A stretch of DNA of 64,000 nt from Burkholderiaceae bacterium (GTDB lineage: Bacteria; Pseudomonadota; Gammaproteobacteria; Burkholderiales; Burkholderiaceae_C). The position numbers were made by a program, and so were the translations under genes. Under the pieces are notes generated by a model, which worked only from the letters and a program-made list of their open reading frames with translations, was not told where the DNA came from and searched no databases. Positions within the stretch are counted from its first letter, which is position 1. Every line of letters starts with the position of its first letter. The stretch is taken from assembly GCA_031253955.1 (NCBI GenBank), contig JAIRVJ010000126.1, positions 20,342 through 84,341 on the forward strand, given 5' to 3'. Below are positions 30,193 through 58,026 of this stretch, in pieces.

Positions 30193-30273
30193 ATAGCTTC
30201 ATGCCAAGGTATTGTATGCATCTATAGCGTATTTTTACAGAAATATGTATACAAGACCTTGGCATATAGCTAT
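30193..30273. repeat. Family F AT-rich element
   Basis: ATAGCTTCATGCCAAGG ... CCTTGGCATATAGCTAT. Confidence 0.8.
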
Positions 30274-30284
30274 CAAATTCAATT

Positions 30285-34711: not shown

Positions 34712-35418
34712 ATCAAAACCTCTCCATCGTTCAACTCGTGCTGCACGCCAGCTTTCTGGTGCAGGGCGTATTGCTGCTGCTGGTCATCATCTCGGTGGCA
34801 AGCTGGGCCATCATGTTCAGCAAGCGGCGCTCTTTCCGGCGCATGAAAACGCTCAATGAAGCGTTCGAGCGCGATTTCTGGTCCGGCGCCACCCTCAACG
34901 ATCTGTACGCCACCGCCGCCAAAAACGCCCAGGTGTCCGGGCCGATGGAGCGCATCTTCGCCAGCGGCATGCGCGAATACCAGAAACTGCGCGAGCGCCG
35001 CATTCAGGATGCCGCCACGCTGCTCGACGGCGCGCGCCGCGCCATGCGCGCGAGCTTTCAGCGCGAGATAGACATGGCCGAGTCGCACCTGTCGTTCCTG
35101 GCCTCGGTCGGCTCGGTCAGCCCCTACGTGGGGTTGTTCGGCACCGTCTGGGGCATCATGCACGCTTTCGTCGGCCTGGCCGGGTTGCAGCAGGTCACGC
35201 TGGCCAGCGTGGCGCCGGGCATCGCCGAGGCGCTGGTGACCACCGCCGTCGGCCTGTTCGCCGCCATCCCCGCCGTGGTGGCCTACAACAGCTTCGCGCG
35301 CGAGCTGGACCGCCTGGGGATTCATCAGGAGACCTTCATCGAGGAGTTCTCCAACATCCTGCAACGCAACCTGGGCGTGCAGCAATACCCGCAAAACGCC
35401 ATGCCCGCCGGATACTGA
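34708..35418 (+). CDS. tolQ: TolQ
   Basis: SPYVGLFGTVWGIM, APGIAEALVTTAVGLFAAIPA. Confidence 0.93.
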   Translation: MNQNLSIVQLVLHASFLVQGVLLLLVIISVASWAIMFSKRRSFRRMKTLNEAFERDFWSGATLNDLYATAAKNAQVSGPMERIFASGMREYQKLRERRIQDAATLLDGARRAMRASFQREIDMAESHLSFLASVGSVSPYVGLFGTVWGIMHAFVGLAGLQQVTLASVAPGIAEALVTTAVGLFAAIPAVVAYNSFARELDRLGIHQETFIEEFSNILQRNLGVQQYPQNAMPAGY

Positions 35419-35434
35419 ACGCCCAGGTCAAATC

Positions 35435-35854
35435 ATGCCCGCCGTCATACACCGCGGCCGCCGCCGCGCCATCAACGAAATCAACATGGTGCCCTTCATC
35501 GACGTGATGCTGGTGCTGCTCATCATCTTCATGGTCACTGCCACCGTCATCACGCCCGGCGTCATCAACGTGCCCAGCGCGGGCCAATCGTCCCTGCCGC
35601 CCGACAACTACATCACCGTCTCCGTCTATGCGGGCCGCCAACTGGGCAGCGACACCGGCAAAAACACCCCGGAGCAAAGCGCCGCCAGCCAGGCGGAACT
35701 GATCCGCCACGTCAGGCAGGCGCTGCAGCCGGCGCCCGACATGCCCGTGCTCATCGCCGCCGACAAGGACCTGCCCTACCACCAGGTCATCACCCTCATG
35801 AGCAAGCTGCGCGACGAAGCGGGCGCGCGGCGCATCGCTCTGCGGGTGAAATGA
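35435..35854 (+). CDS. tolR: TolR/ExbD
   Basis: EINMVPFIDVMLVLLIIFMVTA, IAADK. Confidence 0.9.
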   Translation: MPAVIHRGRRRAINEINMVPFIDVMLVLLIIFMVTATVITPGVINVPSAGQSSLPPDNYITVSVYAGRQLGSDTGKNTPEQSAASQAELIRHVRQALQPAPDMPVLIAADKDLPYHQVITLMSKLRDEAGARRIALRVK

Positions 35855-35994
35855 GGTTGAGCGTTCGGCATGAAAATGTTTGCTCTGGTATTTATAGCCT
35901 ATACCCAATGCTGCGCATGGATTTTCAAATGTTTTATCCTGATTGGCGACATACCTCCGATGGAATTGAAGGAAAGCAGCATGACTTTCCTTTC

Positions 35995-36084
35995 GCCATT
36001 CCCGCGAAGGCGGGAATCCATGCAGCGCATCCACCGCCAGGCGATAACCAAGGCCCAGTGGATTCCCGCCTGCGCGGGAATGAC
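35995..36084. repeat. Family A doublet (class 2, inverted relative to 10354)
   Basis: Spacer is the reverse complement of the 10380-10417 type; lies inside the tol operon. Confidence 0.88.
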
Positions 36085-36139
36085 GGCTTGAAACGCCTTC
36101 ACTGAACCGTATTGCGCTAAACGCTCGACGCCAAACCTC

Positions 36140-37003
36140 ATGCCCCCGCCCGCCCCGCGCAACGAATTCGCCCCGCCGCCGCCCGGCGGCATGGCCAGCG
36201 CCCTGATGCTGGCGCTGCTGGCGCACCTGCTGCTGGTGCTGGCGCTGGCCTGGGGTTTGAACTGGCGGCAGCAATCGAGCGACCAGAACATCCAGGCCGA
36301 ACTGTGGTCCGCCCCGCCGCCACCTCCGCCCGTACAGCCGCCAGAGCCACCGCCAAAACCGGAACCAAAACCAGAGCCGGAACCCAAACCTGCCGCCCAG
36401 ACCCGTCAGGCCGACCTCGTGCTGGAGCAAAAAAAGAAAGAAGAAACCGAACGCCGCGCCGCCGAAGAAGCCGCCCGGCGCGTCAAAGCCGAATTTGAAC
36501 GCCAGCGCCAGCAAGCCGCCGAGCAGGAACGGCTGAAACAGGAGGCCGAAAAGAAAGTCGCCGCCGAACGCGAACGGCGCAAGGAAGAAGCGGCCCGGCA
36601 GGAAGCCGAGGCCGACCGGCGCCATGCCGCCGAAATGGACCGCCTGCGCCGGCAAGCTGGCCGCGACAGCGCCACCGCCGCCGCGGCCAACGCAGCGCCT
36701 TCCGCCGGGTACGGCGACAAGGTGCGCGCCGCCGTGTACCCCAACGTCGTGTTCCCCAATCAAATCGAGGGCAACCCGCTGGCCGAAGTCGAAGTGCGCA
36801 CCGCCCCGGACGGCGCCATCACCAGCCGGCGCCTGCTCAAATCCAGCGGCGTCAAGAGCTGGGACGAAGCCGTGCTGCGCGCCATCGACAAAACCCAGAC
36901 CATCCCCCGCGATACCGACGGGCGCGTCCCCCCGTCCATCATCATCGAGTTCCGCCCGCGCGACCGCAGCACTTTGGCAGAACCGAAAATCCTGAATCGA
37001 TAG
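36140..37003 (+). CDS. tolA: TolA
   Basis: TM anchor, Pro-rich linker, E/K/A/R helix, TonB-like C-domain (SGVKSWDEAVLRAI). Confidence 0.88.
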   Translation: MPPPAPRNEFAPPPPGGMASALMLALLAHLLLVLALAWGLNWRQQSSDQNIQAELWSAPPPPPPVQPPEPPPKPEPKPEPEPKPAAQTRQADLVLEQKKKEETERRAAEEAARRVKAEFERQRQQAAEQERLKQEAEKKVAAERERRKEEAARQEAEADRRHAAEMDRLRRQAGRDSATAAAANAAPSAGYGDKVRAAVYPNVVFPNQIEGNPLAEVEVRTAPDGAITSRRLLKSSGVKSWDEAVLRAIDKTQTIPRDTDGRVPPSIIIEFRPRDRSTLAEPKILNR

Positions 37004-37080
37004 CTGTTTTCCTTTGCGTGTCATGTGTTTAATGCATGAAAAATTAAAAAAACACAGACTACTTATTGGCAAATAGCTAT
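37000..37080. repeat. Family F element supplying the tolA stop codon
   Basis: ATAGCT starts at 37000 (TAG 37001-03) ... TTGGCAAATAGCTAT. Confidence 0.75.
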
Positions 37081-37103
37081 TATTTTTTGAACTAGTCATC
37101 CAT

Positions 37104-37227
37104 TTTTGCTCCCTCCCCCGCCTGCGGGGGAGGGTTGGGGTGGGGGCGCACGGCGCTGAAATAAACACCGGATTTGCGATGCGCCGCCGGCACCCATCCG
37201 ACCCTTCCCACCGCATACGGGGGAAGG
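37104..37227. mobile_element. Family D element
   Basis: Same arms and GCGCACGGCGCTGAAA...CGATGCGCCGC spacer as the 24.35-kb and 34.07-kb copies. Confidence 0.8.
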
Positions 37228-37249
37228 AGGACAAGCCAAGGCCGCGTAT

Positions 37250-37272
37250 TTGTCCGTACAAATGTATAAAAT
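37250..37272 (+). promoter_or_regulatory. Candidate GntR/HutC-type operator next to a -10-like element
   Basis: TTGT-CCGT-ACAA at 37250-61, followed by TATAAAAT, about 45 bp upstream of the MaoC gene. Confidence 0.45.
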
Positions 37273-37305
37273 GAGCAAAGTTGTTCTGAACAGGAGACGC
37301 AGGCA

Positions 37306-37815
37306 ATGGACGTGAAACGAGAGCAGGCCCAACCGGCGCGCCGCATCCGCGCCAGTTACGGGCGCTATCTGGAAGACTTCCAGATCGGGGACATCTACGA
37401 GCACCGCCCTGGGCGCACGATCACGGAGACCGACAACATCCACTTCTCGCTTCTGACGATGAACTCGCATCCGATGCATTGCGACACCGCCTATGCGGCC
37501 AAGAGCGAGTTCGGCCAGTTGCTAGTCAACAGCGGCCTGTCGCTGGCGATCGTGCTAGGCATGACCGTCAACGACGTCAGCGCCAAGGCCATCGCCAACC
37601 TGGGCTGGAAAGACATCAAGCTGACCGCGCCGGTTTTCTGCGGCGACACGCTGTACGCGGAATCGGAAGTGCTCGAAAAGCGCGAGTCCAGGAGCCGCCC
37701 CACCCAGGGCATCGTCACCACGCGCACGCGCAGCTTCAAGCAGGACGGCACTCTCGTGATGGAGTTCATCCGCATGTCGCTGATCCCTAGGCGCGGGCAC
37801 GGCGTCGGCGACTGA
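37306..37815 (+). CDS. MaoC-family (hotdog) acyl-CoA hydratase/dehydratase
   Basis: GRYLEDF..G...HRPGRTITETDN..F..LTMN.HP.H.D. Confidence 0.88.
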   Translation: MDVKREQAQPARRIRASYGRYLEDFQIGDIYEHRPGRTITETDNIHFSLLTMNSHPMHCDTAYAAKSEFGQLLVNSGLSLAIVLGMTVNDVSAKAIANLGWKDIKLTAPVFCGDTLYAESEVLEKRESRSRPTQGIVTTRTRSFKQDGTLVMEFIRMSLIPRRGHGVGD

Positions 37816-37856
37816 CGCCCGGCGGCTTTTCTCGCTGAATGGCGGCGGAGACAAAC

Positions 37857-38066
37857 ATGTCCAACGCAAGCTCCATGGATCCGACCAAGGCGACGCAGGC
37901 GCCGACGGAGTTGTCAGGCTCGGAAACGGCGTATGCCGCTTCGCTGGTTGAAGCGGCGCAAGCCACCGCGCAAGCGGTGGCCGATGCCGCGCAAGCGCTC
38001 GACTGGCTGGAAACCGACACCTTCACGCATGCGCTGCGAGCGCTGGAGCCTGGCCATGCGCGCTGA
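37857..38066 (+). CDS. Small 69-aa protein overlapping the amidase start
   Basis: GGAG RBS; Ala-rich helix; ends LDWLETDTFTHALRALEPGHAR; 11-nt overlap with the amidase. Confidence 0.5.
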   Translation: MSNASSMDPTKATQAPTELSGSETAYAASLVEAAQATAQAVADAAQALDWLETDTFTHALRALEPGHAR

Positions 38067-39453
38067 AACGCCTTCTGCGCCAAAGCAAACCTGCCAGTCG
38101 CGCACGGCAGCCGCGTTGCGCGAGGCGGCGCGCGCCGGCGTGCGGGGCGGTTTCGTGCGTTTGCGCGAGGAGGCCGCCTTGACGCAAGCGCGTGCGGTGG
38201 ACCAGCAACGCGCCGCTGGCTTGCCTGCGGGCCGCTTGCAAGGCGCGCCGCTGGCGCACAAGGACATGTTTTTTCGCACCGGTGAACTCAGCGAATGCGG
38301 CAGTCGCATCCTCGCGGGCCATCGTGCGTCGCATACGGCGACGGTGCTGCAACGTCTGGACGCGGCCGGCGCCATTGATCTCGGTGCGCTGCATATGGCT
38401 GAATTCGCCATGAGTCCCACGGGCTTGAACGCGCATCTCGGCCACGGACGCAATGCGTGGTCCGAAGCGCATGTGAGCGGCGGTTCGTCCAGCGGCAGCG
38501 GCATCGCGGTGGCGCTCGGGCTTGTTGCGGGTGCGCTGGGTTCCGATACGGGTGGCTCGGTGCGCCTTCCCGCCGCGGCCAACGGCGTCACGGGGATCAA
38601 GCCCACGCAGCATGCCATTTCGACGCATGGCGTGATGCCGCTGTCGCCGAGTCTGGATTGCGTCGGCGTGCTTGCGCGCACCGCGCAGGATGCCGCCTCC
38701 ATACTGCAAGCCTTATGGGGCGCCGATCCTGCCGATCCGCGCTGCCTTGCATCCGGCCCGCGCGATTTCGAGCGCGCGATCGAACCGCCGTTGACGCGCG
38801 GCGACATCCTTGCCGTGCCCGATCTCAACGGCGATGCGCCGGCATCAAGTGAAGTGCGCGCGGCGGTGCGGCGCGCGGCCCAGTCGCTGGCCGATTGCGG
38901 CGCGACGATTTGCAAGGTGGAAACGCCCGATCTGCGCGAAACGGGCGCGTTGGCCACGCTGATGCTCGGCGCGGAAGCCGCCTCGATCCACGCGAAATGG
39001 CTGCGCGAGCGCCGCGGCGACTATGGCGGGCAGGTGCTGCGCCGTCTGGAGCGCGGCCTGCTGTATCCGGCCACGCGCTACGTCGATGCGCTGCGCTTGC
39101 GCTCGCGCTGCATGACGCGGTTTGTCGAACGCTACCTTGGCAATGCCCAGGCCTTGCTGCTGCCGGCGCTGCCCTGCGCGGTCCCGACGATTGAGGAAAC
39201 GCTCGCGGGCGATGCTAGCGAAATCGAGCGGCGCCTGGGCAACTTCTCGTACTGGACGCGCGGCATCAACTATCTCGGCTTGCCGGCCATCAGCATCCCC
39301 GCAGGCAAGAGTGGCAACGGCATGCCGGCAGGCGTGCAACTGATCGGGCGCGCGTGGGGCGAAGGCGCGCTGCTGCGCCTGGCCCACCAGTTGCAGCGGG
39401 GTACCGACTGGCATCTGCCGTCGCTACTTTCAAATCACCCTGCCGCCGCCTGA
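38056..39453 (+). CDS. Amidase-signature family enzyme
   Basis: PLAHKD, GGSSSGSG, GSDTGGSVRLPA, GIKPT. Confidence 0.9.
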   Translation: MRAETPSAPKQTCQSRTAAALREAARAGVRGGFVRLREEAALTQARAVDQQRAAGLPAGRLQGAPLAHKDMFFRTGELSECGSRILAGHRASHTATVLQRLDAAGAIDLGALHMAEFAMSPTGLNAHLGHGRNAWSEAHVSGGSSSGSGIAVALGLVAGALGSDTGGSVRLPAAANGVTGIKPTQHAISTHGVMPLSPSLDCVGVLARTAQDAASILQALWGADPADPRCLASGPRDFERAIEPPLTRGDILAVPDLNGDAPASSEVRAAVRRAAQSLADCGATICKVETPDLRETGALATLMLGAEAASIHAKWLRERRGDYGGQVLRRLERGLLYPATRYVDALRLRSRCMTRFVERYLGNAQALLLPALPCAVPTIEETLAGDASEIERRLGNFSYWTRGINYLGLPAISIPAGKSGNGMPAGVQLIGRAWGEGALLRLAHQLQRGTDWHLPSLLSNHPAAA

Positions 39454-39492
39454 AGCGTGGCAACGGTTTTTCAATACTCAGGAGACAACCCC

Positions 39493-40881
39493 ATGAATGC
39501 TTCATCCGTCAACGCTGGCGCCCGGCTGGATCGACTGCCGCTGGCGCGCTTTCACTGGAAGATTCTCGGTCTGATCGGCGGCGGCGCGCTGCTCGATGCC
39601 TTCGATGTCTACCTCGCGGCGGGCGTGGTCGCGGCAATGGTGAAAGAAGGCTTTGCGACGCTTGCGAGCGGTTCCGTGTTTATTTCGTCCACCTTCCTGG
39701 GCATGCTGATCGGTGCGGGGCTGGCCGGCTGGGTGGGAGATCGCTTTGGCCGCCGCTATTCGTATCAGGTCAATCTCGCCATCTTCGGCATCGCTTCGCT
39801 GCTGGCCTGCTTTGCGCCGAACATCGAAACACTGATCGGACTGCGCTTTCTCATGGGCCTGGGCCTGGGCGCCGAACTGGTGGTCGCCGCCGGCACGCTG
39901 GGCGAATTCGTACCGCCTGCATATCGGGGCCGGTGGGTTTCACTGTTGGGAATGATGATCAATTCGGGCCTTCTGGTCGCCACGCTTGTGGGCTACGTGG
40001 TGATCCCCTCCCTGGGCTGGCGCTGGATGTTCGCGATCGCCGGCGCGGGCGCGATGGTGATCTGGATCATGCGCAAGCGCATGCCGGAATCACCGCGCTG
40101 GCTGGAGTCGGTCGGACGCACCGCCGAAGCCGAGGCGGAGCTGGCCGATATCGAAGCGCAGGTCGAGCGCGAAACCGGCGAGTTGCCGCCGGTGTTTGGC
40201 GTACAAACCGCCGTGGCGCCACGCCGTTTGCCGCTTTCGGTGCTGTTCTCGCGTCCGATCATAGGCCGCACGCTGGTCGCGGCGCTGGTCGTGATAGCGG
40301 TCAACGTCTCGGTCTACGGCTTCGTGGCCTGGCTGCCAACCTTCTTCGTCAAGCAGGGGCTGACCATCGTGCAGTCGCTGGGTTTCGTCACGCTGATGTC
40401 GTTCGGCTCCACTGCCGGCGCGGTGGTCGGTTTTCTGCTGGGTGATCGTGTCGGGCGGCGGCACGGGTTGATTGCGTTTTCCGCCGCGACGATCATTTTG
40501 GGCTTCATCTACCCGCACATGCGCGATCCCGTCGCAATCGCGGCAGTCGGTTTTGCGCTGGTGACATCCATCTACGTCTTTGTGACACTGGGTTTGTACG
40601 CCTACGTTCCCGAACTGTTCCCGACGGCATTCCGCCTGCGCGGGACGGGCTTTGCGGGCATGTGTGGCCGCGCCGCGTCGATCGGCACGCCCTATGCGGC
40701 GGTGGCGCTGTTCCAGAACTTTGGCGTCACCGGCGTGCTCATGATGGTTAGCAGCATCCTCATGCTGCTGATCATTGCGCTGCTGGCACTGCGCGTCGAA
40801 ACCAGGGGGCGATCGCTTGAAGAAATTGGCACTGCGGTCGAAGAACACGTTGCAAGCGTGGCGGCAATGCAAAAGAGCTAA
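39493..40881 (+). CDS. MFS transporter (aromatic acid/sugar porter-like)
   Basis: RLDRLP, DAFD, GDRFGRR, PESPRWL, ELFPTAFRLRG. Confidence 0.88.
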   Translation: MNASSVNAGARLDRLPLARFHWKILGLIGGGALLDAFDVYLAAGVVAAMVKEGFATLASGSVFISSTFLGMLIGAGLAGWVGDRFGRRYSYQVNLAIFGIASLLACFAPNIETLIGLRFLMGLGLGAELVVAAGTLGEFVPPAYRGRWVSLLGMMINSGLLVATLVGYVVIPSLGWRWMFAIAGAGAMVIWIMRKRMPESPRWLESVGRTAEAEAELADIEAQVERETGELPPVFGVQTAVAPRRLPLSVLFSRPIIGRTLVAALVVIAVNVSVYGFVAWLPTFFVKQGLTIVQSLGFVTLMSFGSTAGAVVGFLLGDRVGRRHGLIAFSAATIILGFIYPHMRDPVAIAAVGFALVTSIYVFVTLGLYAYVPELFPTAFRLRGTGFAGMCGRAASIGTPYAAVALFQNFGVTGVLMMVSSILMLLIIALLALRVETRGRSLEEIGTAVEEHVASVAAMQKS

Positions 40882-40931
40882 TTTCACCCAGTTGGCGCCG
40901 CGCCGGCGCCAGCGCAGATACAGGAAACGAC

Positions 40932-42380
40932 ATGAACACTCAGGCTTTACACCAGGACGGTCCGAAGGCAAACGCGGCGGCAGCCGGCATTGCGGGAACG
41001 CTTGCGCAATTCGCGCTCGAGTTGAAGCTCCAGGCCGTGCCCGCCCAAGTGCGCGAGCGAGCCAAACATCTGCTGCTCGACGCGATCGGCATCGGGTATG
41101 CAGCGCACGGCAGCGATTTCGCGCGCGCCACGCTGGAGGGCCTGTCGGTGCTCGGCAAGGGAGACGCCACCGTGATCGGTTACGGCCGCGTGCTGGCCGC
41201 GCGCGATGCGATGGTGATGAACGGCGTGCTCGCGCACGGCCTGGATTTCGACGACACCCATTCGCGCGGCGTGATTCATGCCACGGCAAGCCTGCTGCCC
41301 TGCGTATTCGGCGTGACCGATGGGCGGCCCCTGGACGGGGCGCAGACCCTGGCCGCTTATATCGCCGGGATGGAAGCCGCCACACGTCTAGGTTCGGTGG
41401 CACAAGGCGGTTTTCACCAGGTCGGTTTTCACCCGACCGGCATGGTCGGCATTTTCGGTTGCACATTGGCCGCCGCACGTTTGCTCGGTTTGACCAGACG
41501 CCAGGCGGAAATGGCTCAGGGCATCGCGCTTTCGATGGCCAGCGGCAGCCTCGAATTCCTGCAAGACGGCGCGTGGAACAAGCGCATGCATCCGGGCTGG
41601 GCGGCGCAAGCGGCCTACACGGCGGCGGCGCTCGCCTTGGGCGGCTTCATCGGCGCTTCGGCGCCTTACGAAGGGCGCTTCGGCCTTTTCTCCAGCTATC
41701 TGGGCGAGCAGCGCGGCAACGCCGATCTGTCGCTGGCAACGACGGGGCTGGGCGAAAAATGGGAGATCGAAGAAGTCGCCATCAAGCCCGTGCCGGCCTG
41801 CCATTTCACGCACGCAGTCGCCGACGCGGGCGCGGCGCTGCATCGCCAGTGGCAGCAGCGCGGCTATAAACTGACCGAGTTGCCCGACCGGATCCAGCGC
41901 ATTCGCGCGAAGGTGCCCGAGGGCGTCGTGAAAACGGTTTGCGAGCCGATGGCCAACAAGCGCCGCCCGGCCAACGCTTACGACGCGCAGTTCAGCGTGC
42001 CGTATGTCACGGCGAGCGCGCTGGTCAAGGGGCGCTTTACGCTCGAAGAGCTGGAACCCGCCGCGCTGCGCGACGAGACGGTGCTGGCGCTGGCGGCCAA
42101 GGTCGATTATGAAATCGACCCCAACAGCACGTTCCCGCGCCACTACACCGGCGAGGTCTGTCTGGAACTGACCAACGGCGAAACTTTGTCACACCGCGAA
42201 GCGATCAATCGCGGCAGCGCCGATAGGCCGCTTGGCAACGGCGAGATCGTCGAAAAGTATCGCGCCAACGCGCGCCGCGCGTTGCCGCAGGCGCGCGTCG
42301 AGAAGATCCGCGAAACCGTGCTCGCCCTCGACCAACTGCCGGCGGGCGCCTGGCATACGGTGCTGGGCGAGGTTGTCTGA
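40932..42380 (+). CDS. MmgE/PrpD family protein
   Basis: LLDAIG, HGLDFDDTH, GFHPT, KRMHPG, IKPVPACHFTH. Confidence 0.9.
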   Translation: MNTQALHQDGPKANAAAAGIAGTLAQFALELKLQAVPAQVRERAKHLLLDAIGIGYAAHGSDFARATLEGLSVLGKGDATVIGYGRVLAARDAMVMNGVLAHGLDFDDTHSRGVIHATASLLPCVFGVTDGRPLDGAQTLAAYIAGMEAATRLGSVAQGGFHQVGFHPTGMVGIFGCTLAAARLLGLTRRQAEMAQGIALSMASGSLEFLQDGAWNKRMHPGWAAQAAYTAAALALGGFIGASAPYEGRFGLFSSYLGEQRGNADLSLATTGLGEKWEIEEVAIKPVPACHFTHAVADAGAALHRQWQQRGYKLTELPDRIQRIRAKVPEGVVKTVCEPMANKRRPANAYDAQFSVPYVTASALVKGRFTLEELEPAALRDETVLALAAKVDYEIDPNSTFPRHYTGEVCLELTNGETLSHREAINRGSADRPLGNGEIVEKYRANARRALPQARVEKIRETVLALDQLPAGAWHTVLGEVV

Positions 42381-42425
42381 AACGACGGGTAGCAATCCAT
42401 TCAATTGGCAATCTGGAGCAATCTG

Positions 42426-43598
42426 ATGTCTCAAATCACTGACAACACGGCAGAGCAGGTCGAAAACGACATGCTGATGCTCGACATGCTGGACCGGTTC
42501 CTCAAAACCGAAGTCAAGCCCTACGTGCACGCGCTGGAAAAAGCCGACGAATACCCTTCCGAGATTGTCGAAAAAATGAAGGAAATGGGTTTGTTCGGAT
42601 GTCTGATCGACACGGAATACGGCGGCCTCGGGCTTTCGGCACGCACCTATGCGCGCATCGTGGAGCGCATGGCGGCGGTCTGGATGTCGCTCAGCGGCAT
42701 CGTCAACTCGCATCTGATCATGGCGATGACTGTGCAGCGCAACGGCACGGCGGCACAGAAAGCGCATTTCCTGCCGCGCTTTGCCACGGGCGAGCTGCGC
42801 GGCGGCATCGGCCTGACCGAACCCGATTGCGGCACCGACTTGCAGGCCATCCGCACAGTGGCCAGGCGCGAGAACGGCCATTACGTGGTCAACGGAACCA
42901 AGATGTGGATCACCAACAGCCTTTACGGCAACTGCATCGCGCTGCTGGTGAAAACCGATCCGTCCGCGCAGCCGCGGCACAAGGGCATGAGCCTGCTGCT
43001 GGCGGAAAAGGGGCCGGGCTTCGAGGTCAGCCGCAAACTGGAAAAGCTCGGCTACAAGGGCATCGATACCTGCGAGCTTAGATTCGATAACTACCGCGTG
43101 CCGGGTGAGCGCCTGATCGGCGGCGTGGAAGGCCGCGGCCTGCAACAGATTCTGGGCGGGCTGGAACTGGGCCGCATCAACGTGGCCGCGCGCGGGCTGG
43201 GCATCGCGGTGGCGGCGCTTGATGCGTCCGTGGCCTACAGCCAGCTGCGCAAGACCTTCGGCAAGCCGATTTGCGAGCACCAGGCCATTCAGTTGAAGCT
43301 TGGCGAAATGGCCACGCGCGTCCACGCATCGCGCCTGCTCATCGACGCGGCGGCGCAAGCCTATGACCGGGGCGAACGCTGCGACATGGAAGCGGGCATG
43401 GCCAAATACTTCGCCACCGAAGCAGGCATGGAAAACAGCGCGGAAGCCATGCGCATCCACGGCGCTTACGGCTATTCGAAGGAGTTTGAAATCGAGCGGC
43501 TGTACCGCGACGCGCCGCTGCTGGTGATCGGCGAAGGCACCAACGAGTTGCAGCGCATGATCATCGCCAAACAGTTGATCGAGAGAAATCCGGCATGA
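42426..43598 (+). CDS. Acyl-CoA dehydrogenase
   Basis: GLTEPDCGTD, NGTKMWITN, GRINVAAR, HGAYGY, IGEGTNE. Confidence 0.92.
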   Translation: MSQITDNTAEQVENDMLMLDMLDRFLKTEVKPYVHALEKADEYPSEIVEKMKEMGLFGCLIDTEYGGLGLSARTYARIVERMAAVWMSLSGIVNSHLIMAMTVQRNGTAAQKAHFLPRFATGELRGGIGLTEPDCGTDLQAIRTVARRENGHYVVNGTKMWITNSLYGNCIALLVKTDPSAQPRHKGMSLLLAEKGPGFEVSRKLEKLGYKGIDTCELRFDNYRVPGERLIGGVEGRGLQQILGGLELGRINVAARGLGIAVAALDASVAYSQLRKTFGKPICEHQAIQLKLGEMATRVHASRLLIDAAAQAYDRGERCDMEAGMAKYFATEAGMENSAEAMRIHGAYGYSKEFEIERLYRDAPLLVIGEGTNELQRMIIAKQLIERNPA

Positions 43599-44809
43599 AC
43601 GCGCCCGAACCCAACGCCGCGCCGGGCGCGCCATTGCTGCTGGCGGGCTTGCGCGTCATCGCCGTGGAGCAATACGGCGCCGGCCCGTTCGGCACGCAGC
43701 ACCTGGCCGATTTGGGCGCGGAGGTCATCAAGGTCGAAAACCCGCACGACGGCGGCGACGTGGGCCGCAGCGTCGGCCCGTACTTCTTCGGTCCCGGCGA
43801 CAGCCACTTCCACCAATCCTTCAACCGCAACAAGAAAAGCATCACGCTGGACCTGAAAAAGCCCGAAGGCCGGGAGGCGCTGCGCCGGCTCGCGCGCGAA
43901 GCCGACGCGGTGTTCAACAACCTGCGCGGCGACCTGCCGGCCAAGCTGGGCCTGACCTACGAGCAGTTGAAAGACGCCAACCCGAAAATCGTGTGCTGCC
44001 ACCTCTCAGCCTATGGCCGCACCGGTTCGCGCGCCGCCTGGCCCGGCTACGACTACTTGATGCAGGCCGAGGCGGGCTACCTGTCCGTGACCGGCGAACC
44101 CGACGGGCCGCCAGCGCGCATGGGCCTGTCCATCGTCGATCTGATGACCGGCGCCACCGCCGCCATGGGCATGCTGGCCGGCGTGCTCAGCGCGCGCAGT
44201 TGCGGCGCCGGGCGCGACATCGACGTGAGCCTGTTCGACGTGGCGCTGCACAACCTGTGCTACGTGGGCGCCTGGTACCTCAACGCTGGCAAGACCACTG
44301 TCCGCGAAAAGCGCTCCTCGCACCCCTCGCTCACGCCCAGCCAGTTGTACAAGACCCGCGATGGCTGGATATTCATCATGTGCAACAAGGAAAAATTCTG
44401 GGGCGTGCTGTGCGAACACATCGGCAAACCCGAATGGGCCGAGGCGCCCGAATACCGCACCTTCAAGGACCGCCTGGCCCACCGCGACCGCCTGACTGAA
44501 GAACTCGACGCCGTGCTGCAAACACGCACCACCGAAGCATGGATGAAGCGCTTTGCCGGCAAAGTGCCCGCCGCGCCGGTATACGACGTGGCCCAAGCGC
44601 TGGACAACGGCTTCGTCGCCGAACAGAAGCTGGTGCGGGAATTCGACCACCCCTCCGGCCCGGTGCGCATGGTCGCTTCACCCGTGCGTGCCGGCCCCCA
44701 CCCGACGCGGCCAGCCCCGGCGATGGGCGAGCACACGGCGGAAGTCTTGCGACAGGCCGGATACACCGACACCCAGATCGGCAAGCTGCGCGACGCTGGC
44801 GTAATCTGA
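43595..44809 (+). CDS. CaiB/BaiF (family III) CoA-transferase
   Basis: AGPFGT..LADLGAEVIKVE, NRNKKSITLDL, PGYDYLMQAEAG. Confidence 0.92.
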   Translation: MNAPEPNAAPGAPLLLAGLRVIAVEQYGAGPFGTQHLADLGAEVIKVENPHDGGDVGRSVGPYFFGPGDSHFHQSFNRNKKSITLDLKKPEGREALRRLAREADAVFNNLRGDLPAKLGLTYEQLKDANPKIVCCHLSAYGRTGSRAAWPGYDYLMQAEAGYLSVTGEPDGPPARMGLSIVDLMTGATAAMGMLAGVLSARSCGAGRDIDVSLFDVALHNLCYVGAWYLNAGKTTVREKRSSHPSLTPSQLYKTRDGWIFIMCNKEKFWGVLCEHIGKPEWAEAPEYRTFKDRLAHRDRLTEELDAVLQTRTTEAWMKRFAGKVPAAPVYDVAQALDNGFVAEQKLVREFDHPSGPVRMVASPVRAGPHPTRPAPAMGEHTAEVLRQAGYTDTQIGKLRDAGVI

Positions 44810-44867
44810 GCGAAAGCAGACGTGCGCGCGGTTTGCCGCATCTCACGATTGCCGAAATGCAAAGTTG

Positions 44868-44947
44868 ATAGCTACATGCCAATATAAATTCTGTATTTCA
44901 GACTAAAAAATATCGAAAATACATATAAAACATTGGCAAACAGCTAT
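44868..44947. repeat. Family F AT-rich element
   Basis: ATAGCTACATGCCAAT ... ATTGGCAAACAGCTAT. Confidence 0.8.
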
Positions 44948-45084
44948 TAGTTTAATAATCGCACAGAAGCACAGATGTCTCACCCGCAAAGGTAGCGCGT
45001 GGGCGAGTGGCGGGCCAGACGCCCGCGCTGGCGGCTATCAAAATAGCAGTGTTCTTTTTCAGCCGATCAAGCAAAATTCCGCCC

Positions 45085-45882
45085 ATGCCAGCAAAAAACC
45101 CGGCTTCTATTTCCCGCGCCCGCCCGCTGGCGCTTGTTGCTGGGCAGCCGCGCTACCTTCAGCTTGCGCAGACCCTGCTCAACGAGATCGAGGCGGGCAA
45201 GCATCCGGTCGGCTCGCAGTTGCCCACCGAGCTTGCATTGTGCGAGCAGTTCGGCGTCAGCCGCGCGACGGCGCGCGAGGCCGTCAAACGGCTGGTGCAA
45301 ATGGGGCTGGTGGTGCGCCAGCCGCGCGTGGGCAGCACGGTGCGGGCGCAGACGGCGAGCACCGTTTATCGCCAGAACATGGCCGACGTGGACGATCTGT
45401 ACCAGTACGCGCAAGACACAACGCTGGTGATTGAGTCCAGCCAAACACGCGAGATCGACGCCGCCCAGGCCGCGCTGCTGGAAGCCGCGCCCGGCGAGAC
45501 CTGGCTGCACATGAAGGGCCGCCGTCACACTAGGGCAACACCCGACCCGATCTGCCTGACCGAGCTGTGGCTGCATCCGGCCTTCCGCTCTATTCAGGGC
45601 ATCGCCGGCCCGCTTGGGCAGGCCGTGCACTCGGCCGTTGAGCAGCAGTTCGGCGAGGTCATCGCCAAGGTGGAGCAGGAAATCCGCGCCGTGGCGCTGG
45701 GCCGCGCCCAGGCGCGGCTGCTCGGCGTCGCGCCCCGCAGCCCGGCGCTGTGGGTCTGCCGCAAGTACCGCAACCGCCTGGACCAGCTTGTGGAGCTGGC
45801 CATGAGCACGCACCCCGCCGGCCGCTTCAGCTACAGCACCGTGCTGCGGCGCGAATGGGGCGCGCAGGAGCTTGCGCGATGA
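45085..45882 (+). CDS. GntR-family regulator (HutC/UTRA type)
   Basis: RYLQLA..L...I...G..LPTE..L..QFGVSR.T.REA; UTRA-like C-terminus. Confidence 0.9.
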   Translation: MPAKNPASISRARPLALVAGQPRYLQLAQTLLNEIEAGKHPVGSQLPTELALCEQFGVSRATAREAVKRLVQMGLVVRQPRVGSTVRAQTASTVYRQNMADVDDLYQYAQDTTLVIESSQTREIDAAQAALLEAAPGETWLHMKGRRHTRATPDPICLTELWLHPAFRSIQGIAGPLGQAVHSAVEQQFGEVIAKVEQEIRAVALGRAQARLLGVAPRSPALWVCRKYRNRLDQLVELAMSTHPAGRFSYSTVLRREWGAQELAR

Positions 45883-47060
45883 CCGGCGGCCCCTGGCGGC
45901 CTCTGGCCATCACCCTGGCCATTCAGGCGCTGGTTTCGATGGCGCTGATTACCGTGCCGGTAATGGCGCCAGTGCTGGCCCAGGCGATGGGCGTGTCCGT
46001 GGCGTGGCTGGGTATTTACGTGGGCGTGGTTTATGCGTCGGCGATGTGCGCGAGCCTCATGGCTGGGGCCGCCGTCGCGCGCCATGGCGCGATCCGCGTG
46101 AGCCAGGCGGGGCTGCTGCTGTGCGCCGCCGGGCTGGCCTGCTCGGCGCTCGGCTGGCCCGCGGCGATGATGGCCGGGGCCGTGCTGATCGGCCTGGGCT
46201 ACGGCCCTGTAACGCCCGCCAGCTCGCACCTGCTGGCGCGCACCACGCGGGCCGATCGCATGTCGCTGGTGTTTTCCATCAAGCAGACCGGCGTTCCGCT
46301 GGGCGGCGTGCTCGCGGGCGCGCTGGTGCCGGCGTTGCTGGCGCTGGGTTGGCGCGGCGCGCTGCTCGCGGTAGCGGCAGCCAACGTCGCCTGTGCCCTG
46401 GCGGCGCAGCCGTTGCGTGCGCCGCTGGATGCCGACCGCGAGCCGGGCCGCCCACTGGCGCTGGGCAGTCTGGCCCAGCCGATCCGCATCGTGCTCGCCA
46501 ACCCGGCGCTGCGGCTGCTGGCCGGCTGCTCTTTCCTGTTTTCGATTGCCCAACTCTCGCTCACCACCTACCTGGTCACCTACTTGCACGACGCGCTGGC
46601 CTACAGCCTCGTGGCGGCGGGCTTGGCAATGTCAGTGACGCAAACAGGCGGCGTTCTGGGCCGCATGGTGTGGGGCTATGTAGCCGACCGCTGGCTGGGC
46701 GCGCGCCGTATGCTGGCGGCGCTGGCGGGGCTGGTGAGCGTGTCGGCCCTGCTCACCGCTGGTCTGCATGGCGGCCTCCCGATCCTGCCGGTGCTGGCCC
46801 TGCTGGCTTTGTTCGGCGCCTCGGCCATCGGCTGGAACGGCGTGTACCTGGCCGAAGTCGCGCGCCAGGCGCCTGCCGGCCAAGCCAGCGTGGCCACCGG
46901 CGGCACGCTGGCGATTACCTTTTTGGGCGTGGTCATCGGCCCGCCCGCCTTCGGCGCTTTCTCCGGGGCCACCGGCAGCTATCACGGCGGATTTATGGCC
47001 GTGGCGCTGATCCTCCTCGTGTGTATCTTCCCTTTGTTGCGACAGCGGAGCACCCCATGA
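45879..47060 (+). CDS. MFS transporter
   Basis: About 12 TM segments; FSIKQTGVPLGG, IGWNGVYLAEVAR. Confidence 0.85.
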   Translation: MTGGPWRPLAITLAIQALVSMALITVPVMAPVLAQAMGVSVAWLGIYVGVVYASAMCASLMAGAAVARHGAIRVSQAGLLLCAAGLACSALGWPAAMMAGAVLIGLGYGPVTPASSHLLARTTRADRMSLVFSIKQTGVPLGGVLAGALVPALLALGWRGALLAVAAANVACALAAQPLRAPLDADREPGRPLALGSLAQPIRIVLANPALRLLAGCSFLFSIAQLSLTTYLVTYLHDALAYSLVAAGLAMSVTQTGGVLGRMVWGYVADRWLGARRMLAALAGLVSVSALLTAGLHGGLPILPVLALLALFGASAIGWNGVYLAEVARQAPAGQASVATGGTLAITFLGVVIGPPAFGAFSGATGSYHGGFMAVALILLVCIFPLLRQRSTP

Positions 47061-47866
47061 AACCCATTCCCCGCAGTTATCTGTTCGTGCCCGGTGACCG
47101 GCCCGAGCGGTTCGACAAGGCGCTGGCCGCTGGCGCGCACGCCGTCATCCTCGATCTGGAAGACGCGGTGCTGCCGGAGCGCAAAACCCAGGCCCGCGCC
47201 GCCATCGCGCAATGGCTGGCGGGCGCTCAAACTTCAGTGTTCTTGCGCATCAATCCCGCCGGCACGCCATGGCATCTGGAAGACTGCGCGCTGCTGGCCG
47301 CCGCATCCGTGCGCGGCGTGATGGCGCCCAAGGCGGAAGATGCGCCAACGCTACAAGCCATCGCCGCGCGCCTGCGCCAAGATCAGGAACTGATTCCCCT
47401 GGTCGAAACCGTAGCCGGCCATTTCGAGGCGCTGGCGCTGGCGCGCGTGCCGCGCGTGAGCCGGCTGGCCTTCGGTTCCGTTGATTTCATGACCGATTCC
47501 GGCATCGAGGGCGACGCGGCGGAATTGGACGCAGTACGCACCCATCTGGTGCTGGTCTCGCGCCAGGCCGGGCTGCAAGCGCCCATCGACGGGGTGTCGC
47601 TGGTCATCGACGATGCGCGGCAGGTGGAAGACGACGCCCGCCGCAGCCGACGCCTGGGGCTGGGCGCCAAGCTGTGCATCCATCCCCGGCAGGTGGCGCC
47701 AGTGCATGCCGCGTTCGCCCCGTCGCCGGCGGAAATTGCGTGGGCGCGGCGCGTGCTGGAGGCGCTCGCCAGCGGCCCGCTGGGCGCGATTGCCGTGGAC
47801 GGCAAACTGGTCGATAAACCCGTCGCCCTGCGCGCGCAAGGCATTCTGGAGCAGCTGGCTCAGTAA
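47057..47866 (+). CDS. CitE-like (HpcH/HpaI) acyl-CoA lyase
   Basis: RSYLFVPGDRPERF, ILDLEDAV, FGSVDF, KLCIHPRQV, GKLVDKP. Confidence 0.9.
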   Translation: MKPIPRSYLFVPGDRPERFDKALAAGAHAVILDLEDAVLPERKTQARAAIAQWLAGAQTSVFLRINPAGTPWHLEDCALLAAASVRGVMAPKAEDAPTLQAIAARLRQDQELIPLVETVAGHFEALALARVPRVSRLAFGSVDFMTDSGIEGDAAELDAVRTHLVLVSRQAGLQAPIDGVSLVIDDARQVEDDARRSRRLGLGAKLCIHPRQVAPVHAAFAPSPAEIAWARRVLEALASGPLGAIAVDGKLVDKPVALRAQGILEQLAQ

Positions 47867-57878: not shown

Positions 57879-57946
57879 ACGAAACACGTTGGGCGTTAGG
57901 CGTTGGGTGTTTGTAAGGGTGAAAAATTTTCTCTTCTACAAAATTA

Positions 57947-58026
57947 ATAGCTATTTGCCAATGTATTGTATGTGTTTTATCATATTTTATATAGAAAACA
58001 CATGTAAATCATTTGCATAGAGCTAG
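57947..58026. repeat. Family F AT-rich element
   Basis: ATAGCTATTTGCCAATG ... CATTTGCATAGAGCTAG. Confidence 0.75.

What the first reader, a model, noticed from the sequence alone, without database searches (positions are those of the whole stretch)
37306..47866. Catabolic island resembling itaconate/C5-dicarboxylate pathways but with an added amidase
Seen: co-oriented MaoC hydratase, small ORF, amidase, MFS, MmgE/PrpD, acyl-CoA dehydrogenase, family III CoA-transferase, GntR, MFS and CitE-like lyase. Known: CoA-transferase + hydratase + CitE-like lyase is the itaconate route (Ict/Ich/Ccl; Yersinia RipABC), and the Pseudomonas aeruginosa cluster also has acyl-CoA dehydrogenase and PrpD genes. 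Inference: the amidase and two transporters suggest an amide or ring-opened N-heterocycle of a branched dicarboxylate feeds this route. The substrate cannot be determined from sequence.
Basis: partly seen in the sequence, partly recalled or inferred. Interest (0 to 1): 0.6.

Follow-up and report, generated by a model that had tools for sequence, protein, structure and literature searches.

The report
Amidase-fed branched-diacid CoA catabolic operon
This is a real ten-gene operon, shared by several soil bacteria, that probably strips the nitrogen from a small acid-amide and burns the remaining branched diacid through CoA esters; it copies the design of the known itaconate/methylsuccinate pathway with different enzymes, and its substrate is still unknown.

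Summary
All ten genes exist at 37306-47866, co-oriented and partly overlapping. With the amidase pair included, the block recurs in Pandoraea, Paraburkholderia, Cupriavidus and metagenomes.

A palindrome (ATTTGTCCGTACAAAT) precedes the first gene in six of these loci and is unique in this genome, which fits control by the HutC-type GntR.

The small ORF is real. It is predicted to bind the amidase (0.83; best control 0.00), like AtzG/AtzE or GatC/GatA.

The resemblance to itaconate clusters holds only at family level. Against Pseudomonas aeruginosa PA0878-0883 the identities are 30% (Ict), 33% (Mcd), 28% (Msi, whose catalytic Tyr is Gln here), none (Ich) and 43% (Ccl). The same genome also carries genes of the canonical type on another contig (Mcd 81%, Ict 68%).

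The host looks Ottowia-like, and none of 25 sampled congeners has a close PrpD or amidase match.

Best reading: a half-amide of a 2-substituted succinate is deamidated and then degraded to acetyl-CoA plus a 2-oxoacid.

This scan noted the same architecture before on other DNA.

Verdict: a new variant of a known kind, of moderate interest.

The parts
37248..37263 (.). Operator-like palindrome ATTTGTCCGTACAAAT, 43 nt upstream of the MaoC start; probable binding site of the GntR/HutC regulator
   Evidence: TTGTCCG(T/A/G)ACAA-type sites (one mismatch in each of the two alphaproteobacterial copies) lie upstream of MaoC in Pandoraea (L011), P. franconis (L118), metagenome L253, Azospirillum (L224) and Pseudosulfitobacter (L226). 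TTGTNCGNACAA occurs once in the whole 2.6-Mb genome, at this place. Binding by the regulator is inferred.
37306..37815 (+). Single hot-dog MaoC (R)-specific enoyl-CoA hydratase, 169 aa, RipB/mesaconyl-CoA-hydratase-like
   Evidence: PF19315 1.3e-24 and PF01575 5.4e-22. NF038241 RipB_Ich 214 bits (cut-off 340); best solved relatives are beta-methylmalyl-CoA dehydratase 8hgn and 4e3e; no real similarity to P. aeruginosa Ich.
37857..38066 (+). Small ORF (69 aa from ATG 37857; 75 aa from 37839), putative non-catalytic amidase subunit (AtzG/GatC-like by position)
   Evidence: ORF present, and its stop overlaps the amidase ATG; conserved upstream of the amidase in P. franconis (55% id), Pandoraea (35%) and C. 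necator H850 (20%); predicted complex with the amidase scores 0.83 against a best control of 0.00; no Pfam, NCBIfam or PDB match.
38056..39453 (+). Amidase-signature amidase, 465 aa, AtzE/GatA-like
   Evidence: PF01425 2.8e-86; best NCBIfam is the AtzE family, 260 bits (cut-off 461). GatA 4wj3 1.5e-65 and AtzE 6c62 4.1e-48. K69, S144 and S168 are invariant in 20 orthologues.
39493..40881 (+). MFS transporter 1, aromatic-acid/H+ symporter-like (ORF open from 39457)
   Evidence: MFS_1 1.4e-43 and Sugar_tr 1.2e-42. TIGR00895 177 bits, below cut-off. Conserved at this position in L011, L012, L118 and L253.
40932..42380 (+). MmgE/PrpD-family protein, 482 aa, of an uncharacterised subfamily (motif GGFHQVGFHPT)
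   Evidence: both PrpD domains; best solved relatives are cis-aconitate decarboxylase (1.7e-32) and IDS epimerase (1.2e-30); 28% identity to P. aeruginosa Msi. H102, D105, H116, H167, K217 and K285 are kept, and Msi Tyr148 is Gln163 here and in most of the 14 relatives at 50% identity or more (never Tyr).
42426..43598 (+). Acyl-CoA dehydrogenase, about 390 aa (ORF open from 42405)
   Evidence: all three ACAD domains; nearest models are AcrC (312 bits) and non-decarboxylating glutaryl-CoA DH (256 bits), both below cut-off; 33% identity to P. aeruginosa Mcd. It is the most conserved gene of the cluster, at 80-89%.
43595..44809 (+). Family III CoA-transferase, 404 aa
   Evidence: PF02515 3.1e-118; nearest models are succinate-glutarate (250 bits) and succinyl-CoA:mesaconate (239 bits) CoA-transferases, below cut-off. 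SUGCT-like solved relatives; 30% identity to P. aeruginosa Ict.
45085..45882 (+). GntR-family regulator with UTRA effector domain (HutC subfamily), about 265 aa
   Evidence: GntR 2.5e-17 and UTRA 1.6e-12. ATG at 45085 is in frame. Present between the CoA-transferase and the lyase in all window-type loci.
45879..47060 (+). MFS transporter 2, about 393 aa, anion:cation-symporter-like
   Evidence: MFS_1 8.3e-33. Same position in metagenome locus L253 (66% id). A 43-44% copy lies upstream of MaoC in L012 and L254.
47057..47866 (+). CitE/HpcH-type acyl-CoA lyase, 269 aa, citramalyl-CoA-lyase-like
   Evidence: PF03328 about 3e-27. NF038242 RipC_Ccl 147 bits (cut-off 375); best solved relative is 8khl/9nzb, 1.4e-48; 43% identity to P. 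aeruginosa Ccl.

Best explanation
This is a horizontally acquired operon, probably repressed by its own GntR/HutC regulator, for using a small carboxy-amide. The most likely substrate is the half-amide of a 2-substituted succinate, that is, a branched C5-type dicarboxylate or a close homologue.

Proposed order of steps. Only the gene content and its conservation are shown; every step below is inferred.
1. One MFS transporter imports the amide and the other imports the free diacid.
2. A two-subunit amidase hydrolyses the terminal amide to the diacid plus ammonia. It consists of an AtzE/GatA-like catalytic chain and the 69-aa subunit translated just before it.
3. The MmgE/PrpD protein acts on the free diacid through an enolate. 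Because it lacks the Tyr of methylsuccinate isomerase, it is probably a one-base isomerase or decarboxylase-type enzyme, not a two-base epimerase.
4. The family III CoA-transferase makes the CoA ester, probably from succinyl-CoA.
5. The acyl-CoA dehydrogenase introduces the double bond.
6. The RipB-like MaoC hydratase adds water.
7. The Ccl-like lyase releases acetyl-CoA and a 2-oxoacid, which would be pyruvate if the substituent is methyl.

The pathway runs in parallel with the Ich-Mcd-Ict genes of the canonical type that the same genome carries elsewhere.
For: Gene content and limits. Four gene pairs overlap: small ORF/amidase by 11 nt, and ACAD/CoA-transferase, GntR/MFS2 and MFS2/lyase by ATGA.

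Co-conservation:
- Same gene order: Pandoraea sp. XY-2, C. necator H850, P. franconis and two metagenome contigs.
- Rearranged, with the amidase pair still attached: Azospirillum plasmids and genome G410, which has a TRAP system with two binding proteins.
- Core without the amidase: Pseudosulfitobacter pSMR1-4.
- The cluster-linked Burkholderiales amidases fall in one well-supported clade (support 99).

Regulation: the palindrome upstream of MaoC is shared by six loci, with and without the amidase, and is unique in this genome.

Two-subunit amidase:
- The predicted complex scores 0.83, and the best of 3 controls scores 0.00. That mark was reached by 58 of 80 solved complexes and 2 of 110 mismatched pairs. 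The runs agree in at least 75% of contacts, and the partner's pLDDT is at least 72.
- GatCA and AtzEG complexes are solved, so the pass may only show likeness to them.
- AtzG is an obligate non-catalytic partner of AtzE (PMC6219798).

Chemistry:
- The hydratase is nearest to RipB and to mesaconyl-CoA or beta-methylmalyl-CoA hydratases.
- The lyase is 43% identical to P. aeruginosa (S)-citramalyl-CoA lyase.
- The CoA-transferase is nearest to dicarboxylate-specific enzymes.
- All known MmgE/PrpD substrates share a C4 1,4-dicarboxylate backbone (PMC12290011), and the six residues that bind it are kept.
Against: - No substrate has been identified, and no enzyme reaches a curated equivalog cut-off.
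- The nearest models for the ACAD and the CoA-transferase include glutaryl-CoA and glutarate enzymes, so a linear C5 route is not excluded.
- The window-type small ORF has no detectable sequence similarity to the small-ORF family of related amidases (E 0.03-3.4) or to any PDB chain.
- Three members of the amidase clade sit in unrelated contexts. The Azospirillum amidase lies outside the clade, so the amidases may not all act on the same amide.
- No ring-opening enzyme is present in the operon or under the same operator.
- Operator binding and co-transcription are inferred.
Confidence: 0.55

Rival explanations
1. Tricarboxylate route. The MmgE/PrpD protein is a cis-aconitate-decarboxylase-like enzyme, or a dehydratase, that acts on an aconitate-, citrate- or tricarballylate-type acid released by the amidase. 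The CoA module then handles the resulting itaconate-type or citryl-type ester, ending in acetyl-CoA plus pyruvate or oxaloacetate.
For: - The best solved relatives of the PrpD protein are cis-aconitate decarboxylases.
- The second-base Tyr of the epimerases is absent, as expected for a one-base enzyme.
- CitE lyases also cleave citryl-CoA (established family knowledge).
- TctC-type tricarboxylate binding proteins sit in or beside the cluster in L012 and L253.
- A class I SAM methyltransferase follows the lyase in Pseudosulfitobacter.
Against: - Identity to the decarboxylases is low (E about 1e-32), about as distant as the 28% match to Msi.
- The ACAD is the most conserved gene of the cluster, and it has no role in a pure aconitate-to-itaconate route.
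- TctC binding proteins are very common in Burkholderiales and are not specific.
Confidence: 0.15
2. The amidase pair is not a feeder for the CoA module. It hydrolyses an unrelated amide for nitrogen scavenging, and it travels with the cluster by hitch-hiking or shared regulation only.
For: - Relatives of the amidase at 50-65% identity occur beside hydantoinase A/B, isochorismatase or peptide ABC transporter genes, or alone.
- The core cluster exists without the amidase.
Against: - The pair sits inside the operon, between the hydratase and the transporter, with overlapping or closely spaced reading frames.
- It stays linked to the core in three gene orders and two proteobacterial classes.
- The same operator type fronts clusters with and without the amidase.
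Confidence: 0.1
3. Redundant second copy. The operon degrades the same acids as the canonical cluster (itaconate, methylsuccinate, mesaconate), and the amidase adds little. C. necator likewise keeps several functional Ict, Ich and Ccl homologues.
For: - The hydratase is RipB-like and the lyase Ccl-like.
- C. necator H16 uses multiple homologous sets cumulatively (PMC13491972 abstract).
Against: - The enzymes are only 28-33% identical to Mcd, Msi and Ict, and the Msi catalytic Tyr is replaced.
- The genome already has Mcd (81%), Ict (68%) and Ich (44-47%) homologues on contig C106.
- The amidase pair is conserved in the operon.
Confidence: 0.12
4. Linear C5 route. Glutaramate, for example from glutarimide, is hydrolysed to glutarate, which is then converted to glutaryl-CoA, glutaconyl-CoA and 3-hydroxyglutaryl-CoA and cleaved.
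For: The best NCBIfam model for the CoA-transferase is succinate-glutarate CoA-transferase (250 bits), and the second-best for the ACAD is the non-decarboxylating glutaryl-CoA dehydrogenase (256 bits).
Against: - Both scores are far below the model cut-offs.
- Known CitE-type lyases cleave esters whose hydroxyl carbon carries a carboxylate (malyl-, citramalyl-, citryl-CoA), not 3-hydroxyglutaryl-CoA (established family knowledge).
- An MmgE/PrpD enzyme has no obvious role in this route.
Confidence: 0.05

Closest known systems
Itaconate/methylsuccinate degradation cluster of Pseudomonas aeruginosa PA0878-PA0883 and Cupriavidus necator (Ich, Mcd, Msi, Ict, Ccl; PMC12290011, PMC9875883)
   Same: The same five protein families occur in one operon: a hot-dog hydratase, an ACAD, an MmgE/PrpD protein, a family III CoA-transferase and a CitE lyase. 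The implied logic is also the same: activate a branched diacid, dehydrogenate it, hydrate it, then cleave it to acetyl-CoA plus a 2-oxoacid. The lyase is 43% identical.
   Different: - The genes are not orthologous: Ict 30%, Mcd 33%, Msi 28%, Ich no real similarity.
- Msi Tyr148 is replaced by Gln.
- The gene order differs.
- Regulation is by GntR/HutC instead of LysR.
- An amidase pair and MFS transporters are added.
- Ich, Mcd and Ict genes of the canonical type coexist in the same genome.
Yersinia/Salmonella RipABC itaconate operon
   Same: The hydratase is nearest to RipB (NF038241, 214 bits), and the lyase also matches RipC (NF038242, 147 bits).
   Different: Both scores are below the equivalog cut-offs (340 and 375). 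RipA belongs to another CoA-transferase family that is absent here. RipABC has no ACAD, PrpD protein or amidase.
AtzE-AtzG 1-carboxybiuret hydrolase of Pseudomonas sp. ADP, itself derived from GatCA (PMC6219798)
   Same: An amidase-signature catalytic chain is nearest to the AtzE and GatA models. A small gene lies immediately upstream and overlaps it, and the two products are predicted to form a complex.
   Different: The amidase scores below the AtzE family cut-off (260 against 461 bits). The small protein has no detectable sequence similarity to anything catalogued. There is no atzH, atzD or atzF. The context is a CoA-dependent carbon pathway, not ureide or triazine breakdown.
Cyclic-imide metabolism (imidase plus 'half-amidase' acting on succinamate or maleamate-type half-amides; Blastobacter sp. 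A17p-4, recalled from my own knowledge, not retrieved here)
   Same: The proposed reaction type is the same: hydrolysis of the half-amide of a dicarboxylate to the diacid plus ammonia.
   Different: No imidase is present in the operon or under its operator. The relationship between the half-amidase and this enzyme was not tested. The downstream route there is the TCA cycle, not a dedicated CoA module.

Membership tests
P. aeruginosa-type itaconate/methylsuccinate cluster | Itaconate CoA-transferase orthologous to PA0882 (C. necator Ict is 60% identical to it, PMC12290011) | tested here: not met
   30% identity over 399 aa. A 68% homologue sits elsewhere in the genome.
P. aeruginosa-type itaconate/methylsuccinate cluster | (S)-(R)-methylsuccinate isomerase with the catalytic pair His102/Tyr148 and carboxylate binders H88, E91, H152, K202, K266 | tested here: not met
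   28% identity. The binders and His are kept (H102, D105, H116, H167, K217, K285). Tyr148 aligns with Gln163 here and is never Tyr in the 14 relatives at 50% identity or more.
P. aeruginosa-type itaconate/methylsuccinate cluster | (RS)-methylsuccinyl-C4-CoA dehydrogenase orthologous to PA0879, adjacent to the MmgE/PrpD gene | tested here: inconclusive
   Adjacency is met. Identity is only 33%, while an 81% homologue lies on contig C106. Substrate not testable here.
P. aeruginosa-type itaconate/methylsuccinate cluster | PA0878-type itaconyl-CoA hydratase (275 aa, FAS1_DH_region) | tested here: not met
   best local match is 15/52 residues, E 0.001. The window enzyme is a 169-aa single hot-dog of the RipB type.
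P. aeruginosa-type itaconate/methylsuccinate cluster | (S)-citramalyl-CoA lyase orthologous to PA0883 | tested here: inconclusive
   43% identity over the full length; best PDB relative. Activity untested.
Yersinia RipABC | RipB and RipC equivalogs by NCBIfam cut-off, and a RipA-type CoA-transferase | tested here: not met
   214 bits against cut-off 340, and 147 bits against cut-off 375. The CoA-transferase is family III, not RipA-type.
AtzE/AtzG-type two-subunit amidase | Amidase-signature fold with the Lys / cis-Ser / Ser triad | tested here: met
   PF01425 2.8e-86. K69, S144 (GGSSSGS) and S168 (GGSVR) are invariant in 20 orthologues.
AtzE/AtzG-type two-subunit amidase | Membership of the AtzE family by curated score | tested here: not met
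   NF006631 260.6 bits (cut-off 461) and TIGR02715 252.9 bits (cut-off 425.75).
AtzE/AtzG-type two-subunit amidase | Small non-catalytic partner encoded immediately upstream that binds the amidase | tested here: inconclusive
   Position and overlap are met. The predicted complex scores 0.83 against a best control of 0.00, possibly from likeness to solved GatCA/AtzEG complexes. There is no sequence match to a PDB chain or to any family. Physical binding is untested.
AtzE/AtzG-type two-subunit amidase | atzH (DUF3225) neighbour, as in the atzG-atzE-atzH clusters | tested here: not met
   Pfam scans of all cluster ORFs show no such domain.
GntR family, HutC subfamily | N-terminal GntR winged helix plus C-terminal UTRA domain | tested here: met
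   PF00392 2.5e-17 and PF07702 1.6e-12.

The most novel reading that the evidence does not exclude
This operon and its relatives encode an undescribed pathway for half-amides of alkyl-substituted succinates or maleates. Such compounds could arise by ring opening of natural cyclic imides or other small N-heterocycles. The pathway would use a GatCA-derived amidase whose small subunit belongs to an uncatalogued protein family, and a Tyr-less MmgE/PrpD enzyme that catalyses a reaction not yet known in that family.
Probability: 0.3. Interest if true: 0.7.

Novelty: new variant of a known kind. Interest (0 to 1): 0.5.

Why it matters
The itaconate/methylsuccinate pathway was completed only in 2025. 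This operon shows a second, non-orthologous assembly of the same five enzyme families, coupled to a two-subunit amidase, and it recurs in soil and rhizosphere Proteobacteria.

Finding its substrate would achieve three things:
- It would add a new entry route for nitrogen-containing organic acids into central metabolism.
- It would assign a function to a new MmgE/PrpD subfamily.
- It would extend the AtzEG/GatCA 'vestigial complex' idea to carbon catabolism.

It also gives a defined operator and regulator pair that could be used as a biosensor in a ligand screen.

Tried and rejected
- The search for related loci with the amidase alignment picked generic amidase-signature motifs. It returned mostly relatives of about 45% identity in other contexts. 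These served only as an outgroup and for the small-ORF survey.
- An order-wide search with NF038242 found only stand-alone CitE genes, not canonical clusters.
- Plasmid hits to the PrpD protein at 33-45% identity (Diaphorobacter, Azotobacter, Sodalis) lie in unrelated contexts and were dropped.
- Other PrpD paralogues of P. franconis are not next to ACAD genes.
- A profile of the small ORFs found upstream of related amidases did not hit AtzG or GatC in the PDB, nor any Pfam or NCBIfam family. Homology of the small proteins to AtzG therefore remains unshown.
- jackhmmer and HMM tests did not link the window-type small ORF to that family.
- The supplements of PMC12290011 hold no mention of this cluster type or of a pathway amidase.
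- A paper search for half-amidase and for methylsuccinamate, itaconamate, citraconamate or mesaconamate found nothing relevant.
- Attempts to reach the metagenome record behind L232 failed. The P. aeruginosa reference was obtained instead by exact look-up of its Ict.
- The sigma-70 promoter scan found nothing, and the terminator-like hits were not above background in any useful way.
- The synteny check around mobB in five congeners showed a conserved mobB-thrC-hom block, but no tolA and no island genes next to it. The exact insertion site therefore cannot be reconstructed.

Full report
**Observation.** The window is GC-rich (about 64%). Between 37306 and 47866 all large ORFs with coding-type GC3 lie on the + strand. 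Pfam and NCBIfam identify, in order:
- a 169-aa MaoC hydratase;
- an amidase-signature amidase;
- an MFS transporter;
- an MmgE/PrpD protein;
- an acyl-CoA dehydrogenase;
- a family III CoA-transferase;
- a GntR/UTRA regulator;
- a second MFS transporter;
- a CitE/HpcH lyase.

The 'small ORF' is real. It runs from 37857 (or 37839) to 38066, and its stop overlaps an in-frame ATG of the amidase at 38056. Refined gene limits are given under parts. ACAD/CoA-transferase, GntR/MFS2 and MFS2/lyase overlap by ATGA. Two long ORFs are frame artefacts: the 664-aa ORF at 45872-47866, and the 656-aa antisense ORF at 35336-37306, which has no Pfam hit.

The flanks are housekeeping genes. Upstream lie ribBA, ribH, nusB, ybgC and tolQ, tolR, tolA. 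Downstream lie mobB, thrC and hom on the opposite strand.

**Conservation.** Amidase homologues at 57-84% identity come from Paraburkholderia, Caballeronia, Pandoraea, Castellaniella, Candidimonas, Cupriavidus and many metagenomes. Where the neighbourhood could be read, the whole block recurs:

| Locus | Source | Notes |
|---|---|---|
| L011 | Pandoraea sp. XY-2 chromosome | same order |
| L012 | C. necator H850 contig | extra TctC and MFS upstream |
| L018/L118 | P. franconis | same order |
| L253 | metagenome contig | same order as the window, second MFS included; beside an integrase, Ku and a ligase |
| L254 | metagenome contig | same order |

Two rearranged versions keep the amidase pair with the core. 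In Azospirillum plasmids the order is lyase (opposite strand), then MaoC, PrpD, ACAD, CoA-transferase, GntR, small ORF, amidase and TRAP permease genes.

Pseudosulfitobacter plasmid pSMR1-4 has the core (CoA-transferase, MaoC, PrpD, ACAD, GntR, lyase) with a TRAP system and no amidase. A Caballeronia plasmid has a succinate-dehydrogenase-type flavoprotein in place of the ACAD.

Amidase relatives at 55% identity or less lie in other contexts, beside hydantoinase A/B, isochorismatase or a peptide ABC transporter. One at 65% over 85% of the query stands without the core genes. In a quick maximum-likelihood tree the cluster-linked Burkholderiales amidases form one clade (SH-aLRT 99), together with three members that have moved elsewhere. 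The Azospirillum enzyme lies outside it.

**Regulation.** A palindrome, ATTTGTCCGTACAAAT (37248-37263), lies 43 nt upstream of MaoC. Close variants occupy the same place in Pandoraea, P. franconis, L253, Azospirillum and Pseudosulfitobacter. The relaxed pattern TTGTNCGNACAA occurs once in the whole 2.6-Mb assembly. This fits an operator for the cluster's own HutC-type GntR. It also suggests that clusters with and without the amidase answer to the same kind of effector. Binding is inferred, not shown.

**The amidase pair.** The catalytic chain is nearest to the AtzE-family and GatA models, but below their cut-offs. Its best solved relatives are GatA and AtzE. The Lys/Ser/Ser triad positions are invariant in 20 orthologues.

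AtzE needs the small non-catalytic AtzG, and the pair derives from GatCA (PMC6219798).

In the window, the small ORF is conserved in position and partly in sequence: 55% identity in P. franconis, 35% in Pandoraea and 20% in H850.

A complex prediction with controls gave 0.83, with the best of 3 controls at 0.00. That mark was reached by 58 of 80 solved complexes and 2 of 110 mismatched pairs. The runs agree in at least 75% of contacts, and the partner's pLDDT is at least 72. Because GatCA and AtzEG complexes are solved, the pass may only reflect likeness.

Looking wider, about 50 amidase relatives at 39-50% identity each have a 56-90-aa ORF ending at the amidase start. These ORFs carry a shared C-terminal motif, L-x-F-[DE]-[DE]-E-P-x-x-F. 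That family is absent from Pfam and NCBIfam and matches no PDB chain. The window-type small ORFs do not score against it.

[quoted passage not shown] I fetched a P. aeruginosa-type reference locus using a primer-derived pattern from PMC9875883 and an exact look-up of its Ict. Pairwise results:

| Window protein | Reference | Identity |
|---|---|---|
| CoA-transferase | Ict | 30% |
| ACAD | Mcd | 33% |
| PrpD protein | Msi | 28% |
| MaoC hydratase | Ich | no real similarity (E 0.001) |
| CitE lyase | Ccl | 43% |

The six residues that bind the C4-dicarboxylate and stabilise the enolate are kept. The proposed second base of Msi, Tyr148, aligns with Gln163. The motif GGFHQVGFHPT is shared, with variation at the two middle residues, by relatives at 50% identity or more, and none has Tyr there.

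The hydratase is instead RipB-like (214 bits, cut-off 340), and the lyase also matches RipC (147 bits, cut-off 375).

The same genome carries Ich (44-47%), Mcd (81%) and Ict (68%) homologues of the P. aeruginosa type on contig C106, which ends just after Ict. The window operon is therefore a parallel pathway built from the same families, not a diverged copy of the known one.

**Island status.** ThrC is 82-88% identical to Ottowia sp. proteins, so the host is probably an Ottowia-like member of the Comamonadaceae. Among the sampled congeners:
- no amidase match exceeds 39% identity in 24 genomes;
- the best PrpD match in 25 genomes is 52% identical and partial;
- none of 10 same-family genomes has a PrpD match.

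By contrast, the 5' genes are 82-89% identical to P. franconis. The 3' genes (CoA-transferase, GntR, MFS2, lyase) are closest to metagenome locus L253, at 81, 74, 66 and 71%, against 70, 52, none and 54% for P. franconis. The operon is thus a mosaic of two lineages of the same cluster type. In five congeners, mobB-thrC-hom is conserved, but neither tolA nor any island gene lies beside it.

**Mechanism.** The best-supported reading has these steps:
1. The amide is imported.
2. The two-subunit amidase removes the nitrogen.
3. The PrpD-type enzyme acts on the free diacid.
4. The CoA-transferase, ACAD, RipB-like hydratase and Ccl-like lyase act in turn and yield acetyl-CoA plus a 2-oxoacid.

The hydratase and lyase affinities, and the rule that MmgE/PrpD substrates have a C4 1,4-dicarboxylate backbone (PMC12290011), favour a 2-substituted succinate. 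Methyl is the simplest substituent. The existence of Ich, Mcd and Ict genes of the canonical type in the same genome, and the Tyr-less PrpD protein, suggest a different or wider substrate. No ring-opening enzyme belongs to this operon or its operator, so an N-heterocycle origin is possible but unsupported here.

**Earlier notes of this scan.** Notes on other genomes describe the same architecture (e1-4259463, e1-4259465) and larger clusters that join an itaconate-type CoA module to ring-opening and amide-cleaving enzymes (e1-3868886, e1-5193897, e1-5186530). These are unchecked leads. They agree with the reading here but are not independent evidence.

**Verdict.** This is a conserved but uncharacterised variant of a known pathway type, of moderate interest.

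Noticed in passing
window 30259-30275, 37066-37082, 44933-44949, 57945-57961 (-): An AT-rich intergenic repeat with core TTGGCAAAYAGCTATTA occurs four times in the window, against 0 expected by chance. One copy lies at the left edge of the island. Another lies inside it, just before the GntR gene, and there about 80 nt align. Its nature is unknown; it could be a promoter module or a small mobile element.
   Followed up: partly
window 37096-37150: A G-rich hairpin-like repeat (GCTCCCTCCCCCGCCTGCGGGGGAGGGTTGGGGTGGGGG) sits between tolA and the island. It looks like the G-rich 'triplex/BoxC-like' repeat family described for this genome in note e1-5271855.
   Followed up: no
G000 contig C106 (L257: 6750-10323): The same genome has Ich (44-47%), Mcd (81%) and Ict (68%) homologues of the P. 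aeruginosa type on another contig, which ends 1.1 kb after Ict. Whether Msi and Ccl follow is unknown.
   Followed up: partly
L002, L003, L010, L015, L019-L077 (small ORFs ending at the amidase start; alignment A2): About 50 AtzE/GatA-like amidases from Alpha- and Betaproteobacteria and Chloroflexota are each preceded by an overlapping 56-90-aa ORF. These ORFs share a C-terminal motif, L-x-F-[DE]-[DE]-E-P-x-x-F. The family is absent from Pfam and NCBIfam and has no PDB match. It is a likely uncatalogued AtzG-like subunit family.
   Followed up: partly
L254: 6948-7538 and 17366-20324: In one metagenome version of the cluster, an isochorismatase-family gene lies upstream. A PEP-mutase/isocitrate-lyase-family gene and aconitase-type large and small subunit genes follow the lyase. 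These may be extra steps for related branched acids.
   Followed up: no
L225 (Caballeronia sp. SBC1 plasmid pSBC1_2): 4882-12757: This variant of the core has a succinate-dehydrogenase/fumarate-reductase-type flavoprotein where the ACAD normally is, followed by MaoC, MFS, PrpD (57%) and a CoA-transferase. It has no amidase.
   Followed up: no
L253: 2710-8685: The metagenome copy closest to the window's 3' half lies next to a phage-type integrase, Ku and a DNA-ligase fragment. This fits a mobile context.
   Followed up: no
window 47860-47866: The lyase gene and the convergent mobB gene overlap by 7 nt at their 3' ends, so there is no spacer or terminator between the island and the housekeeping block.
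   Followed up: no
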